Origin: a virus
Taxonomy: Duplodnaviria; Heunggongvirae; Uroviricota; Caudoviricetes
Reading direction: 5' to 3' (one strand)
Virus record (IMG/VR): IMGVR_UViG_3300014522_000013
DNA: 6,214 bases
Position numbers and translations under genes: made by a program. The first letter of the stretch is position 1. Every line of letters starts with the position of its first letter. Of this stretch, positions 1,924-5,678 are shown piece by piece. The notes under the pieces are model-generated. The model saw only the letters and a list, made by a program, of their open reading frames with translations. It made no database searches and was not told the origin of the DNA.

Positions 1924-2205
1924 TCATGATTTACTCTCCACTAACTGGTCAATAGCCATGCTAAGTGACATACCTAAAGTTTCGATATGCTGCTGAATAT
2001 CCTGTAGCGTCTGCGCCTGAGATAACAGGATTTCACGGTTGCATAACTCTTTAACCAGATGCTCAAACTTGCTGTAATAACCGATACGACTTAGTGTTTC
2101 TTTCCCTGCATTCTCGCCTTCTTTGATAATTCCTCTTTCACTAAGAATCAGGTCGTGTTTGGTTCCGGTAATAACGTATTTTCCGAGGTCGATGTTTAGC
2201 TTCAT
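1924..2205 (-). CDS. hypothetical phage protein (93 aa)
   Basis: ATG at 2205 with GGAGT 8 nt upstream; 16 nt after the stop of the preceding gene; codon usage consistent with neighbours. No family recognised. Confidence 0.65.
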
Positions 2206-2221
2206 TGTTAATTACTCCATG

Positions 2222-2536
2222 TTAATTTATTCGTATGCCTGCTCTTTCTTCATCGAGTTTTTTTAGCTTGTATCGCATAGCTCTTACTGAATAAATTGAG
2301 CGGCAGGTTGCAATTGCTATTTCTTCTGCGGAGAACTTACCGAAAAGTGATACTTCGGCTCTTGTCCAGCGTCTTCCACGAAGTCGGCTAACAATGTCAG
2401 CGCCAATCCTTGTTGCTTTTGCCATTACTGCTTTTTCAGTCCTTTCCAGTTTTTCAGCGATAACTTGAACTGGCATTGTCGCCGCTACTTCGCGCAAGAA
2501 ATCGACTTCCCATTTCTCCCATGGAGTCTTTTTCAT
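2222..2536 (-). CDS. small protein with two internal HTH-like (Myb/SANT-like W-x3-E-V-x2-L...I-A...R-x4-A-x-R-x-K-L) repeats; putative DNA-binding protein
   Basis: Residues ~5-45 (PWEKWEVDFLREVAATMPVQVIAEKLERTEKAVMAKATRIG) and ~56-94 (RWTRAEVSLFGKFSAEEIAIATCRSIYSVRAMRYKLKKL) align as a duplicated motif. ATG at 2536 lies 11 nt after the Gp157 stop and has only a weak Shine-Dalgarno, so re-initiation is likely. Confidence 0.65.
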   Translation of the reverse strand: MKKTPWEKWEVDFLREVAATMPVQVIAEKLERTEKAVMAKATRIGADIVSRLRGRRWTRAEVSLFGKFSAEEIAIATCRSIYSVRAMRYKLKKLDEERAGIRIN

Positions 2537-2547
2537 AGTCGATACCG

Positions 2548-3030
2548 TTATTTGATAAGAAGTGAAGGTTTCCCAACCTTGAGTTGAGCGCCGGGGATAT
2601 TTATTCCTGCTTTTAGTTGGTGCTTGATTGCCAACTTGTCGGCTTTAATTGTCGTTTCGAACTCAACGTATTCAGGAGGAAGGGCGCTTGAGTCGATGAT
2701 TTCTACAGTTTCTGACGGTTTGCGGATTGTTACCTGGTGAATACCTGCTCTAATCTTTTTCTTGCCAACCATTTCAAGCGATGACGCTATATATGATTTG
2801 ATGCTGTCAATCTTATTTTGAATTACTGCGGCTCGCTCATTCAGCGACTTTGCCTCTTCCTTGAGGCGTTCAGCATAACCAGATTCATTTTTAATGACGG
2901 AAAGAAGTTGCTCTATTTTATCGGTAAATTCTCCTTCCATGCCTTCTATTGTGTCAGCAATCATCTCTGGTTCTAAATCTGAATCCATCAATTTTGCGTA
3001 TTCATTGGCAATTTCATACAGTTTGCTCAC
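2548..3030 (-). CDS. Siphovirus Gp157-family protein (recombination-module accessory protein), about 160 aa
   Basis: Translation (..SKLYEIANEYAKLMDSDLEPEMIADTIEGMEGEFTDKIEQL...IPGAQLKVGKPSLLIK) has the size and pattern remembered for the Sipho_Gp157 family. Track start is a TTG at 3036 that abuts GGAGG; the GTG at 3030 has GGAGG with a 6-nt spacer and is the likely start. Overlaps the RecT 3' end by 17 nt. Confidence 0.78.
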   Translation of the reverse strand: MSKLYEIANEYAKLMDSDLEPEMIADTIEGMEGEFTDKIEQLLSVIKNESGYAERLKEEAKSLNERAAVIQNKIDSIKSYIASSLEMVGKKKIRAGIHQVTIRKPSETVEIIDSSALPPEYVEFETTIKADKLAIKHQLKAGINIPGAQLKVGKPSLLIK

Positions 3031-3916
3031 TGGCAACCTCCAGTTTCGCTTTGCATTCTGCGTAAATGGCTTGTACGTTCTGCTGCAATTTCATTCCAGA
3101 TGTCAGGCGATATGCTTCTGCAAAATATCGCTTCAAATCATCCATGTTTTCTGCCTGAGCCATTTCATCGCAAAGAAGTTGTGCTTTATCCATTATTTCC
3201 TGCTGGCGTTTCCGTTCATCTTCGCGGATATCTTCCTCTGATTTGTGCGGCATAACTGGTTCCTGATGCATACCTTCATCTTCGTTAAGAAGGTGAATGG
3301 CATTATCCAGTCGCTGGGCTTTAGGCCAGTATTTGCTGGCGCGTTTAACTATTGTTTTACGCGCCATCTCTTCCCAGAATGTTTTCCACGGTCCATTCTT
3401 TGCCTTGCTCGTTGCTTCCACAGCTTTAATTTCTGCCAGACTCATTTCTTCAGTCAGGTAGTCACCATCTGCTGTTTTAACCGTGCAATAACCTCCAACA
3501 ATAGAGCCTCGCTCACCAAATGCGTTGTATTTGTGGGTTGGTGCTGAATCAAGGCCATTTGATTCATAGGTGTCGTTTGAGTACACCAGTTTGCATTGCC
3601 CCCACTTAATTGATCCTGTCGATTGCGCAAGATGAAGTAATCCCATGTAACTGATATCAAGGCACACCATGCCGTCGCGAGGAACCAGATAAGCCAGTTT
3701 GCTGGCCGGGTTTAAGGTGATGCCGATCGCCGCAACATTGATGATGGCGTTCTGTGCGCTGGTTGGATTTGCCAGTGCTGTTTTAGCCAGGTAATCGTTT
3801 TTCTGGAAATACTGAATTGCAAACTGGCTTTCCTTAGCCCATGTCACCGTCTGTTCAGTCAATGCTCCGCAGAATAACTGCTCCTGCTGTTTAACGAATT
3901 CAACGATATTGCTCAT
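3014..3916 (-). CDS. recT: RecT-family single-strand annealing protein (phage recombinase)
   Basis: 300-aa translation carries the RecT/Red-beta core motif ...KNGPWKTFWEEMARKTIVKRASKYWPK..., comparable to E. coli RecT ...NGPWVTHWEEMAKKTAIRRLFKYLPV.... ATG at 3916 overlaps the stop of the upstream 103-aa gene as ATGA; GGAGAAG Shine-Dalgarno upstream. Confidence 0.9.
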   Translation of the reverse strand: MSNIVEFVKQQEQLFCGALTEQTVTWAKESQFAIQYFQKNDYLAKTALANPTSAQNAIINVAAIGITLNPASKLAYLVPRDGMVCLDISYMGLLHLAQSTGSIKWGQCKLVYSNDTYESNGLDSAPTHKYNAFGERGSIVGGYCTVKTADGDYLTEEMSLAEIKAVEATSKAKNGPWKTFWEEMARKTIVKRASKYWPKAQRLDNAIHLLNEDEGMHQEPVMPHKSEEDIREDERKRQQEIMDKAQLLCDEMAQAENMDDLKRYFAEAYRLTSGMKLQQNVQAIYAECKAKLEVASEQTV

Positions 3917-4458: not shown

Positions 4459-4574
4459 AATAAGACCTCAACTCTTTTCCATCCGTCACGTAATTTANNN
4501 NNNNNNNNNTCAAGTAAAGATTCATTTAATTGGAAGGCACCCATGCGAGCGCCTCCCGCGATTGCGTAAATCAT
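4443..4574 (-). CDS. cIII: CIII-like protein (FtsH/HflB protease inhibitor that stabilises CII), about 43 aa; four and a half codons are masked by the N-run
   Basis: Hand translation MIYAIAGGARMGAFQLNESLL-[E/D]-xxx-[x]-KLRDGWKRVEVLLCAMK against lambda CIII MQYAIAGWPVAGCPSESLLERITRKLRDGWKRLIDIL.... Readable bases in the two partly masked codons (GAN and NNT) fit Glu and Arg(CGT) of lambda ERITR. AAGGAA Shine-Dalgarno 7 nt upstream of ATG 4574. Missed by the ORF track because of the Ns. Confidence 0.82.
   Translation of the reverse strand: MIYAIAGGARMGAFQLNESLLXXXXXKLRDGWKRVEVLLCAMK
4498..4509. other. 12-nt run of N (masked or unresolved bases) inside the cIII-like coding sequence
   Basis: Literal n characters in the sequence; flanking reading frame is continuous if the run length is correct. 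Confidence 0.95.
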
Positions 4575-4598: not shown

Positions 4599-5567
4599 TT
4601 AGTAGGTTATTTTTGTTGCGAATACTTCGCCTTTTACGATGGCTGTTATGATATTTTTAGCAACATCTTCTGGTGCGCCAACCTTGATAAGGTCAGCAAG
4701 TATTTTGTTATTTACTTCTTTCCGGTGAGCTTTATCCTTTGCTCTACGCTCTTCTTCGTCCTTGATTCTTTTTTCTTCTGCTATTCTGGCTTGCTCTTTT
4801 GCTTCAGCCTCGCGCCGGATTCGTTCAGCCTCCTCCTGTGCTTTTCGGCGTTCTGCTTCAATTGCCGCCTGCTTTTCTCTTTCAGCTCGTTCTGCTGCCT
4901 CTTTTGCTTCGCGCTGTGCTCGTTGCTCGGCTTCAATGCGTTCACGCTCTGCACGTTCCGCTGCGGCCTTAGCTTCTGCTTCTCGCCTTGCTGCTGCTTC
5001 AATTTCGGCTTTTGCCTTTGCTTCGGCTTCAGCTCTGGCTTTCTCTTCAGCTTCTCTTTGTAAGCGTTCTTCATGCTCTCGCTTTTCCTGCTCCGCTTTG
5101 AGTCTTGCCTCTTCTCTTTGGCGGTCAAATTCGCGATCCATCAAAATCGCTATTTCATGGTCAGACTCAATTTGCTTTGCGAGAGCTTCAGCTGCTGCCT
5201 TAGCTTCTTCTTCGGCTTTAATCCGCGCCTGTTCTTCCTCATAATCAGTAAGAGGCTGGCGCGCCTTGGCTTTCAGTTCATCAAGGCGATCGCGCACTGT
5301 CTTGCGGTTGGCATCAATTAGCTTTGGAATTTCCTTCAGTTCAGCAACAAGGTCTTTGCCAAGACCATCGAGATATGTTTTCGTCTGCGCAACTTTATAC
5401 GCCAGAGAAGCGATCTCCTTTCTGCCCTTTGCCGTTGTGATATCAGGCACAAAGGACATAACTTCACGTTCAACCTTTTGAAGGATTTCTTCAATCTGGT
5501 CGGCAGACTGAAATACAGTCATTGCATTTGCTTTTTCAATAACAACTAAATCTGTTACTTCACTCAT
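4599..5567 (-). CDS. 322-aa protein: globular N-terminal domain (~105 aa), ~170-aa Glu/Arg/Ala/Lys-rich predicted single alpha-helix or coiled-coil, short C-terminal domain; function unknown
   Basis: Long ORF with GGAGG Shine-Dalgarno 4-5 nt upstream of ATG 5567. Central region is runs such as EAEAKAKAEIEAAARREAEAKAAAERAERERIEAEQRAQREAKEAAERAEREKQAAIEAERRKAQEEAERIRREAEAKEQARIAEEKRIKDEEERRAKDKAHRKE. Stop lies 24 nt upstream of cIII. Confidence 0.85.
   Translation of the reverse strand: MSEVTDLVVIEKANAMTVFQSADQIEEILQKVEREVMSFVPDITTAKGRKEIASLAYKVAQTKTYLDGLGKDLVAELKEIPKLIDANRKTVRDRLDELKAKARQPLTDYEEEQARIKAEEEAKAAAEALAKQIESDHEIAILMDREFDRQREEARLKAEQEKREHEERLQREAEEKARAEAEAKAKAEIEAAARREAEAKAAAERAERERIEAEQRAQREAKEAAERAEREKQAAIEAERRKAQEEAERIRREAEAKEQARIAEEKRIKDEEERRAKDKAHRKEVNNKILADLIKVGAPEDVAKNIITAIVKGEVFATKITY
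4745..5255 (-). repeat. compositionally biased, codon-repetitive DNA (CT/GC-rich on the plus strand) encoding the E/R/A/K-rich segment of the 322-aa protein
   Basis: Plus strand is dominated by gcttc/ctgc/ttct-type units without exact long tandem repeats; it generates several spurious overlapping ORFs in other frames (4530..5063 +, 4762..5244 +, 4781..5128 -). Confidence 0.6.
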
Positions 5568-5600: not shown

Positions 5601-5678
5601 NNNNNNNNNNNNNNNNNNNNNNNNNNNNNNNNNNNNNNNNNNNNNNNNNNNNNNNNNNNNNNNNNNNNNNNNNNNNNN
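5601..5678. other. 78-nt run of N (masked or unresolved bases) between the AT-rich orphan gene and the 322-aa gene
   Basis: Literal n characters; content cannot be read. Followed on the minus strand by ccaatgtgagggcgaTTTTTTga and then the Shine-Dalgarno of the 322-aa gene. Confidence 0.95.

What the first reader, a model, noticed from the sequence alone, without database searches (positions are those of the whole stretch)
2222..2536. 104-aa protein built from two HTH-like repeats
The two halves share a W-x3-E-V-x2-L ... I-A ... R-x4-A-x-R-x-K-L pattern reminiscent of Myb/SANT-type DNA-binding repeats. A small tandem-HTH protein directly after the recombination genes could be a regulator or a DNA-binding accessory factor.
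Basis: seen in the sequence. Interest (0 to 1): 0.38.

Follow-up and report, generated by a model that had tools for sequence, protein, structure and literature searches.

The report
Abc1-like tandem HTH phage protein
This small prophage gene encodes a real, conserved protein made of two Myb-like DNA-binding repeats; it is a distant relative of phage P22 Abc1 and phage T5 D5 and sits just after the phage recombination genes, so it is an ordinary member of a poorly understood family, not a new kind of thing.

Summary
The ORF is real: 2222-2536 on the minus strand, 104 aa, in the early-left (PL) operon of a lambdoid E. coli prophage, directly downstream of RecT and a Gp157/Mu-Gam-like gene. It is under purifying selection (dN/dS 0.08 against phage SEN22).

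The two-repeat idea holds, but not in this sequence alone. A Smith-Waterman alignment of the two halves scores no better than shuffles. Family profiles of the halves do match (P 1e-5; z about 8.6 against column shuffles). Citrobacter homologues carry a third copy, and related proteins carry arrays of up to nine.

The protein falls in PHROG 323 together with P22 Abc1 and T5 D5. A profile comparison with Abc1 is collinear (91% probability), and the Abc1 model has the same 3+3 helix layout and the same fold neighbours. Homologues almost always lie just 3' of recombination modules of four different types.

Most likely it is a bipartite HTH protein that binds double-stranded DNA and acts as an Abc1-like accessory or regulator. 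DNA binding and role are inferred, not shown. It is a new member of a known kind, of modest interest.

The parts
2222..2536 (-). Complete gene for the 104-aa Abc1/D5-like tandem-HTH protein (pI 10.1, 12.1 kDa).
   Evidence: ORF. PHROG 11492 (E 4e-23) and PHROG 323 (E 6e-20). dN/dS 0.08. pI.
2399..2524 (-). Repeat 1 (residues 5-46): three helices at 8-17, 23-30 and 34-43. Motif W6/W9-E10..F13-L14 ... I26-A27-E-K-L-E-R32-T ... A41..R43-I44-G45.
   Evidence: AlphaFold2 secondary structure. Conserved columns. Weak NarL/RcsB HTH match. The repeat-1-type profile hits Cbp2, Myb and GcrA.
2372..2398 (-). Basic linker (residues 47-55, DIVSRLRGR; R56 follows immediately and opens repeat 2). Low model confidence, probably flexible.
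   Evidence: pLDDT below 50 at residues 50-53. Analogous to the Arg-rich linker of Cbp2, which tethers two HTH domains (PMC3597662).
2258..2371 (-). Repeat 2 (residues 56-93): helices 59-66, 70-77 and 81-103. Motif R-W57-T58-x2-E61-V-x-L64-F65 ... E71-E72-I73-A74 ... T77-x-R79-S80 ... V84-R85..R88.
   Evidence: hhalign against repeat 1 and against repeat 3 of the 152-aa homologues. Consensus of 45 repeat units is xRxWTxxExxLLGxxxDxEIAxxTGRSxxSVxxKRxxL.
2222..2257 (-). C-terminal tail (residues 94-104, LDEERAGIRIN) plus the stop codon. It varies among homologues.
   Evidence: Alignments.
2548..3036 (-). Context: upstream neighbour, a Sipho_Gp157 / 'Mu Gam-like end protection' protein (162 aa), part of the recombination module.
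   Evidence: Pfam PF05565 (E 2.5e-38). PHROG 253 (E 1e-54).
3014..3916 (-). Context: RecT-family single-strand annealing protein (300 aa).
   Evidence: Pfam PF03837 (E 2.5e-33). PHROG 148 (E 9e-92).
1924..2205 (-). Context: downstream neighbour, a DUF5405 / Sf6 gene-24-like protein (93 aa).

Best explanation
The gene encodes a small, basic, bipartite helix-turn-helix protein. It has two homologous tri-helical (Myb/homeodomain-like) units connected by a flexible Arg-rich linker. [quoted passage not shown]

Inferred mechanism: it is made early from the PL operon together with the recombination module. Each unit places its third helix in a major groove of double-stranded DNA, and the basic linker tethers the two units so that they read adjacent half-sites, as in Myb R2R3, the Tc3 bipartite domain and archaeal Cbp2. 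Through this DNA binding it acts as a non-essential accessory to phage recombination and replication, or as a modulator of gene expression, as reported for Abc1 and D5.

Shown here: gene reality, repeat homology, predicted fold, family membership and conserved position.

Inferred, not shown: DNA binding, the DNA target and the physiological role.
For: Real gene:
- dN/dS 0.08 against SEN22.
- Present in 299 E. coli genomes.

Repeats are homologous:
-.
- 2-, 3- and up to 9-unit versions exist.

Fold:
- 3+3 helices.
- Many ~100-aa phage proteins in BFVD have similar predicted structures.

Sequence profiles:
- Cbp2 E 5e-7, c-Myb E 8.5e-6, RcsB 1e-4, GcrA 9e-3.

Family:
- PHROG 323 is hit by the window protein (6e-20), by P22 Abc1 (1.3e-23) and by T5 D5 over its full length (1.2e-71).
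- hhalign of the family against Abc1 gives probability 91%, P 1e-6, 76 collinear columns. Against D5 it gives probability 79.5%, P 1.5e-5.

Position:
- The gene lies immediately 3' of RecT+Gp157 (window; L021, L025, L026), Gam-RecT-YqaJ (L006), RecT-YqaJ (L012), ExoVIII+PHROG 11517 (L015, L010, SEN22, L027) and Erf (P22).

Charge:
- pI 10.1, with repeat 2 plus the linker most basic.

Literature:
- Abc1 aids P22 recombination but is not essential, and its mechanism is unknown (PMC12315714; PMC9836394).
- Abc1 carries an HTH and triggers cell death that depends on the P4 satellite (bioRxiv 10.1101/2023.04.06.535777).
- The T5 record describes D5 as a DNA-binding protein required for replication and late transcription.
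Against: - No experiment on this protein exists, so DNA binding is inferred from fold and charge only.
- Pairwise BLASTP against Abc1 finds nothing. The Abc1 and D5 links rest on profile methods at 80-91% probability and on a PHROG built by remote-homology clustering of a repetitive HTH motif, which can attract unrelated HTH proteins.
- The window protein passes no curated Pfam or NCBIfam model.
- Conserved position in lambdoid phages may reflect general synteny and not functional coupling. Two contexts (L017, L024) lack a recognisable recombination module.
- No candidate binding-site repeats, promoter or terminator were found nearby.
- pTM is 0.45, so the relative orientation of the two units is not defined.
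Confidence: 0.65

Rival explanations
1. It is a dedicated transcription regulator, in the style of T5 D5, GcrA or LuxR. It binds specific operators in phage, satellite or host DNA and changes transcription, for example of host surface-polysaccharide or satellite genes. Its position next to the recombination genes is only synteny.
For: - PHROG 323 is labelled 'transcriptional regulator, D5-like'.
- The T5 record says D5 is needed for late transcription and for shutoff.
- The best structural match is the DNA-binding domain of the transcription factor GcrA.
- Repeat 1 resembles NarL/RcsB HTH domains.
- Silas et al. suggest Abc1 perturbs P4 transcriptional regulation, and that its phage-sensitising effect is phenocopied by O-antigen or capsule disruption (PMC12373910).
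Against: - It has no effector, oligomerisation or sigma-binding domain. GcrA needs its C-terminal sigma70-binding domain, which is absent here.
- No operator-like repeats were found in the window.
- Adjacency to four unrelated recombination-module types persists across mosaic genomes.
- Genetics for P22 Abc1 point to recombination.
Confidence: 0.25
2. It is a protein-binding adaptor, used the way SANT domains are. The two helical units bind RecBCD, the annealing protein or another host protein, not DNA, and so modulate recombination or host defence.
For: [quoted passage not shown]
- SANT and Myb-like domains such as CoREST and MTA1 appear among the fold matches.
- Many anti-defence proteins are small.
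Against: - The protein is strongly basic (pI 10.1) and has conserved Arg/Lys at the turn and in the third helix (R32, R79, R88), as in DNA-contacting HTHs.
- Affinity-purification mass spectrometry of Abc1 gave no clear partner (PMC12373910).
- The same gene at 90% identity accompanies entirely different recombination proteins, which argues against a specific phage partner.
- D5 is described as a DNA-binding protein.
Confidence: 0.08
3. The 'repeat' is a chance resemblance between two unrelated helical segments, or the ORF is not a real gene.
For: - The single-sequence self-alignment is no better than shuffles.
- With a shallow alignment, repeat 1 against repeat 2 gave only P 0.045.
Against: - Profile comparison z is about 8.6 against column shuffles, and P is 1.8e-13 with broad profiles.
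- Homologues carry a third repeat or long arrays.
- The model shows two equivalent 3-helix units.
- Selection is purifying.
Confidence: 0.02

Closest known systems
Phage P22 Abc1 (gp35, 'anti-RecBCD protein 1', 94 aa)
   Same: - Same PHROG (323).
- Collinear profile match (probability 91%).
- Same size class and a basic pI (10.3).
- Same predicted architecture: 3 helices, linker, 3 helices.
- Same genomic slot, immediately after the single-strand annealing protein gene in the PL operon.
- The annotators of phage Gally already labelled the orthologue 'similar to P22gp35_Abc1'.
   Different: - No pairwise BLAST similarity.
- Abc1's first unit lacks the Trp/Glu signature.
- Abc1 is followed by Abc2 and preceded by Erf. 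Here there is no Abc2, and the partners are RecT plus a Gp157-like protein.
- The mechanism of Abc1 is itself unknown.
Phage T5 D5 protein (256 aa DNA-binding protein, the name-giver of PHROG 323)
   Same: - Built from the same kind of ~45-aa HTH units, e.g. 'VAEIAEKTGKSERGVKSMLSRRGL' against 'VIAEKLERTEKAVMAKATRIG'.
- hhalign probability 79.5% across two units.
   Different: - Four units, and an acidic to neutral pI (6.3).
- It belongs to a lytic phage replication gene cluster.
- It is essential for replication and late transcription according to the T5 record.
- The similarity is remote.
Archaeal CRISPR-repeat-binding proteins Cbp2 (PDB 2LVS, 105 aa) and Cbp1
   Same: - Two (Cbp2) or three (Cbp1) imperfect HTH repeats of three helices each, joined by a disordered Arg-rich linker that tethers the domains for high-affinity binding to specific dsDNA.
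- Helix boundaries are nearly superimposable on the model here (PMC3597662).
- Best PDB sequence hit of the repeat-1-type profile (E 5e-7).
   Different: - It is archaeal and binds CRISPR repeats.
- The narrow orthologue profile gives only E 0.25.
- There is no evidence of common function. It is an architectural analogue and possibly a distant homologue.
Eukaryotic Myb R2R3 / SANT repeats (Pfam PF00249) and the Caulobacter GcrA DNA-binding domain (PF07750)
   Same: - 'W-[ST]-x2-E-[ED]' start and 'I-A-x3-G-R-[ST]' before the recognition helix.
- Tandem arrangement.
- Related long proteins do pass the Pfam Myb and GcrA models.
   Different: - The window protein passes neither Pfam model.
- Only the first of the three Myb tryptophans is kept.
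- It has no GcrA C-terminal sigma70-binding domain.

Membership tests
PHROG 323 (T5 D5 / P22 Abc1-like) and PHROG 11492 | Significant match to the family profile HMM | tested here: met
   - PHROG 11492: E 4.1e-23.
- PHROG 323: E 6.4e-20.
- Abc1 against PHROG 323: 1.3e-23.
- D5 against PHROG 323: 1.2e-71 over its full length.
P22 Abc1-like recombination accessory | Collinear homology to Abc1 over both units | tested here: met
   hhalign of the family against the Abc1 alignment gives probability 91%, P 1e-6, 76 columns. Pairwise BLASTP finds nothing.
P22 Abc1-like recombination accessory | Gene located within or at the 3' edge of the PL-operon recombination module | tested here: met
   The window, HK140, SEN22 and loci L006, L012, L015, L010, L014, L021, L025, L026 and L027 all show it. 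The exceptions are L017 and L024.
P22 Abc1-like recombination accessory | Contributes to phage recombination or anti-RecBCD activity in vivo | not testable with these tools
   Only genetic reports for P22 Abc1 are available, cited at second hand.
Myb/SANT DNA-binding repeat (Pfam PF00249/PF13921) | Passes the Pfam gathering threshold | tested here: not met
   The window protein has no Myb hit even at E<=1. Only 5 of 45 repeat units give weak hits.
Myb/SANT DNA-binding repeat (Pfam PF00249/PF13921) | Three regularly spaced Trp (or aromatic) core residues per ~50-aa repeat | tested here: not met
   Only the first Trp is conserved (W6/W9 and W57). The later core positions are I26/I44 and I73/L91.
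Myb/SANT DNA-binding repeat (Pfam PF00249/PF13921) | Tri-helical HTH fold in tandem | tested here: met
   - AlphaFold2 model.
- Profile A3 hits c-Myb at E 8.5e-6.
GcrA cell-cycle regulator (PF07750) | N-terminal DBD plus C-terminal sigma70-region-2-binding domain; Pfam match | tested here: not met
   [not shown]
Sigma-70 family sigma factor (NCBI's name for Abc1 homologues) | Region 2 (-10 recognition and core binding) together with region 4 | tested here: not met
   Homologues give only faint or sub-threshold Sigma70_r4_2 hits. The window protein gives none. The protein has no region 2 and is too short.
LuxR/FixJ (GerE, PF00196) tetra-helical HTH | Pfam match and a four-helix DBD with HTH at helices 2-3 | tested here: inconclusive
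   Profile hits on repeat 1 are NarL at E 0.0085-0.04 and RcsB at 0.017. There is no Pfam GerE hit. The model shows three helices per unit, not four.
Cbp1/Cbp2 CRISPR-repeat-binding proteins | Two or three imperfect HTH repeats plus a basic linker; binds CRISPR repeats | tested here: inconclusive
   The architecture is met. The broad repeat profile gives E 5e-7, but the narrow profile gives E 0.25. DNA specificity cannot be tested here.

The most novel reading that the evidence does not exclude
Abc1-like tandem-HTH proteins are a module-independent DNA-binding cofactor of phage recombination. The same small bipartite dsDNA binder would serve Erf, RecT/Gp157, RecT/YqaJ/Gam and ExoVIII modules alike, for example by marking or protecting phage DNA or by directing annealing and anti-RecBCD activities to it. 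Alternatively it could read a DNA feature such as Dam methylation, as the GcrA DBD does. If true, this would finally give the 35-year-old 'Abc1' function a mechanism and link it to T5 D5.
Probability: 0.2. Interest if true: 0.55.

Novelty: new member of a known kind. Interest (0 to 1): 0.3.

Why it matters
P22 Abc1 has been listed as a recombination accessory of unknown mechanism since the 1980s and is still called uncharacterised in papers from 2022 to 2025.

This widespread 'hypothetical protein' is found in about 5% of complete E. coli genomes. Placing it in one repeat family with Abc1 and T5 D5 gives a concrete hypothesis: these proteins are Myb/Cbp2-like bipartite HTH proteins with two or three units, they follow recombination modules of unrelated types, and they act by binding double-stranded DNA and not by binding RecBCD. 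That hypothesis can be tested directly.

The result also corrects database names such as 'sigma-70 family sigma factor', 'AsnC family' and 'replication initiation'. Beyond that the finding is ordinary: a small HTH accessory gene of a lambdoid prophage.

Tried and rejected
Searches and tests that gave nothing useful:
- Smith-Waterman alignment of the two halves of the single sequence scored the same as the shuffle mean.
- hhalign with a shallow 16-sequence alignment gave only P 0.045 for repeat 1 against repeat 2. More divergent homologues from the representative search were needed.
- Direct Pfam and NCBIfam scans gave only a sub-threshold HTH_12 hit and noise.
- BLASTP against P22 Abc1 gave no alignment. 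An hmmsearch of the A1 profile against Abc1 was weak, covering one 22-residue stretch.
- tblastn against the phage collection found only close orthologues, in 16 records.
- The search for related loci failed with the divergent alignment and returned only 7 loci with a closer one.
- Promoter, terminator and repeat scans around the gene found nothing above chance and no candidate operator arrays.
- The Rfam and tRNA scans were empty.
- A literature search for T5 D5 biochemistry found nothing usable. One search was rejected because a term was too short. The primary Abc paper PMC203970 is not held.

Readings considered and rejected:
- A sigma factor: the protein has no region 2.
- A true GcrA: it has no sigma-binding domain.
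- A Mu Gam or anti-RecBCD protein in its own right: there is no evidence for this.
- A chance repeat.
- A spurious ORF.
- The overlapping plus-strand ORFs 2123-2266 and 2465-2587 as genes: they are short, have no homologues and lie antisense to a gene under selection.

Full report
**Where we are**

The window is part of the early-left (PL) operon of a lambdoid, P22/HK97-like, E. coli prophage. All real genes are on the minus strand.
- megablast finds 93-96% identity to phages vB_EcoP-683R2, Louie, HK140, mEpX1, Kapi1 and Gally.
- Annotated relatives show the gene order N ... cIII-kil-(103 aa)-RecT-Gp157-like-[this gene]-DUF5405-...-Ea22-...-xis-int.
- In the window, RecT is at 3014-3916 (PF03837, E 2.5e-33). 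A Sipho_Gp157 / 'Mu Gam-like end protection' protein is at 2548-3036 (PF05565, E 2.5e-38; PHROG 253). A DUF5405 protein is at 1924-2205.

**Checking the observation**

The ORF 2222-2536 lies on the minus strand and encodes 104 aa. It is a genuine gene.
- Near-identical copies occur in 16 phage records and in 299 of 5426 complete E. coli genomes. All are chromosomal and all are named 'hypothetical protein'.
- Against the Salmonella phage SEN22 orthologue (90% aa, 84% nt identity), dN/dS is 0.08 at dS 0.79.

- W6-x3-E10-V11 corresponds to W57-x3-E61-V62.
- I26-A27 corresponds to I73-A74.
- The third element is exact only in the second half.

A formal test on this sequence alone fails. The best local alignment of the halves scores 21 against a shuffle mean of 21.2. 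The repeat becomes significant only with evolutionary information.
- Homologues of 150-155 aa in Citrobacter, Enterobacter and Scandinavium prophages carry a third unit, 'REWTxEELAxLMRYTNAEVAEITGRSIEEVGDKR'. It matches half 2 at P 3e-10 to 1e-17.
A null of 150 column-shuffled alignments has mean 8.6, sd 1.9 and maximum 15.9.
- With broader unit profiles (A3 against A2), the probability is 98% and P is 1.8e-13. One caveat applies: part of A3 was harvested from long repeat proteins and may overlap in kind with A2.

**Structure**

AlphaFold2 with the family alignment gives mean pLDDT 79.
- There are two three-helix units: H8-17, H23-30 and H34-43, then H59-66, H70-77 and H81-103.
- The connector between them (residues 44-58) has low confidence and contains the basic stretch SRLRGRR.
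- pTM is 0.45, as expected for two units on a flexible tether.

- then Tc3 transposase, CEF1/Cdc5 and c-Myb repeats (24-27% identity);
- then homeodomains and sigma region 4.

Foldseek against BFVD finds dozens of ~100-aa, mostly unnamed phage proteins with the same two-unit layout.

**How big the family is**

A profile search of 1.84 billion representative proteins gives 1582 hits at E<=1e-3 and 247 at E<=1e-10.
- Many hits are 300-800 aa proteins matched in 3-8 stretches.
- Re-scanning the top 145 with the unit HMMs shows tandem arrays of up to 8-9 units at a period of about 45 aa.
- The unit consensus is xRxWTxxExxLLGxxxDxEIAxxTGRSxxSVxxKRxxL.
- No curated Pfam family covers it. Individual units touch Sigma70_r4_2, HTH_23 and Myb_DNA-binding at or below threshold.

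Sequence profiles against the PDB:
- The repeat-1-type profile hits Cbp2 (2lvs, E 5e-7), c-Myb (8.5e-6), v-Myb and B-Myb, RcsB (1e-4), NarL and GcrA (9e-3).
- The narrow orthologue profile reaches only NarL (0.0085) and RcsB (0.017).

So the units sit in the homeodomain-like/Myb and LuxR/sigma-r4 neighbourhood of HTH space. The 'Myb-like' label describes fold and motif. It is not Pfam membership.

**The Abc1 and D5 connection**

PHROG scans place the protein in PHROG 11492 (unknown function, E 4e-23) and in PHROG 323, 'transcriptional regulator, D5-like' (E 6e-20). RefSeq uses the latter name for the HK140, mEpX1 and SEN22 orthologues. The annotators of phage Gally called the orthologue 'Anti-RecBCD protein 1, similar to P22gp35_Abc1'.

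I tested the Abc1 link directly.
- P22 Abc1 is 94 aa and is encoded directly after erf.
- It shows no BLASTP similarity to the window protein.
- It hits PHROG 323 at 1.3e-23.
- It aligns collinearly with the family profile: hhalign probability 91%, P 1e-6, 76 columns covering both units.
- Its AlphaFold2 model has the same layout, H8-14/20-26/31-40, linker, H54-65/70-77/81-93 (pLDDT 80.5).

T5 D5 (256 aa) matches PHROG 323 end to end (1.2e-71). It is visibly built from four such units and aligns to the family at probability 79.5%. The T5 record describes it as a DNA-binding protein required for replication and late transcription.

**Genomic context of homologues**

The gene sits immediately 3' of a recombination module in nearly every locus examined, although the modules are unrelated:
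- RecT + Gp157-like: the window, HK140, L014, L021, L022, L025, and L026, where an HNH gene is inserted.
- Gam-RecT-YqaJ: L006.
- RecT-YqaJ: L012 and L013.
- ExoVIII + PHROG 11517: L015, L016, L010, L011, L027 and SEN22.
- Erf: P22 Abc1.

SEN22 carries a 90%-identical copy behind a completely different module. The exceptions are a decayed prophage (L017) and a Scandinavium locus (L024). In L024 the 3-unit homologue appears fused to an excisionase-like domain.

**What it most likely does**

The most parsimonious reading combines several observations.
- The protein has two or three tethered tri-helical HTH units.
- The linker and the second unit are strongly basic, and the overall pI is 10.1.
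- Arg/Lys are conserved at the turn and in the recognition helix (R32, R79, R88).
- It has a close architectural analogue with a solved structure. Cbp2 has two imperfect HTH repeats and a disordered Arg-rich linker that tethers them for high-affinity binding to specific dsDNA (PMC3597662).

From these I infer a bipartite dsDNA-binding protein. Its role is probably that reported for its homologues.
- Abc1 'aids in, but is not essential for' P22 recombination and has no known mechanism (PMC12315714; PMC9836394).
- Abc1 carries an HTH, triggers P4-satellite-dependent cell death and has a broad phage-sensitising effect (bioRxiv 10.1101/2023.04.06.535777; PMC12373910).
- D5 binds DNA and affects replication and transcription.

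The data cannot decide whether this protein acts as a recombination accessory or as a transcriptional modulator. I rate the generic statement (a bipartite HTH DNA binder homologous to Abc1 and D5) at about 0.65. I split the specific role roughly evenly between those two options. A protein-adaptor role is a minor third option.

**What was not found**

- There are no promoter, terminator or operator-like repeats near the gene beyond chance.
- There are no Rfam or tRNA features in the window.
- The plus-strand ORFs that overlap the gene are spurious.

**Verdict**

The protein is a new member of a known but mechanistically uncharacterised family, not a novelty. Its value is that it links 'hypothetical' prophage genes, P22 Abc1 and T5 D5 into one repeat family with a testable DNA-binding mechanism.

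Noticed in passing
window 4498-4509 and 5601-5678: There are two runs of N, 12 and 78 bases long. The first interrupts the cIII/kil region. The second lies in the gap between the 322-aa gene and the 156-aa gene. ORF calls across them show X residues.
   Followed up: partly
window 4599-5567 (-): A 322-aa protein with a long E/A/K/R-rich, coiled-coil-like middle (PHROG 1376/21365, function unknown). It is annotated 'TolA protein' in vB_EcoP-683R2. Its low-complexity codons produce the DNA direct repeats at 4769-5213.
   Followed up: no
window 1924-2205 (-): A 93-aa DUF5405 protein, like Sf6 gene 24, carries the PHROG 154 label 'replication initiation protein'. That label looks doubtful for a 93-aa PL-operon accessory gene.
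   Followed up: no
L020 (Salmonella phage SEN22) 1611-3315; L015 3593-5288; L010 1-1411; L027 1726-3782: A conserved ~190-aa protein of unknown function (PHROG 11517) always lies between an exonuclease VIII-like gene and the HTH gene. By position it is a candidate uncharacterised single-strand annealing protein.
   Followed up: partly
L024 3486-4208 (Scandinavium manionii prophage): A 3-repeat homologue appears fused in frame to an excisionase-like C-terminal domain (PHROG 539, E 2e-30), giving a 240-aa ORF. It could be a real fusion, a sequencing frameshift or read-through.
   Followed up: partly
L006 5923-7305; L017 5288-6952: Dam-type, and in L017 also Dcm-type, DNA methyltransferase genes lie zero to one gene downstream of the HTH homologue in two prophages. 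This is suggestive because the best fold match is the methylation-sensing GcrA DBD, but it may be coincidence.
   Followed up: no
P0124-P0265 (representative proteins): Hundreds of 300-800 aa proteins consist largely of tandem arrays (up to 8-9 units, period about 45 aa) of this 'WT..E..LLG..D.EIA..TGRS..SV..KR..LG' unit. Some are fused to helicase or HNH domains. No dedicated Pfam family seems to describe the unit.
   Followed up: partly
P0267-P0291 (Salmonella Abc1 homologues): NCBI names P22 Abc1 homologues 'sigma-70 family RNA polymerase sigma factor' on the strength of a Sigma70_r4_2 hit. These 94-aa proteins lack region 2, so the name is misleading.
   Followed up: yes
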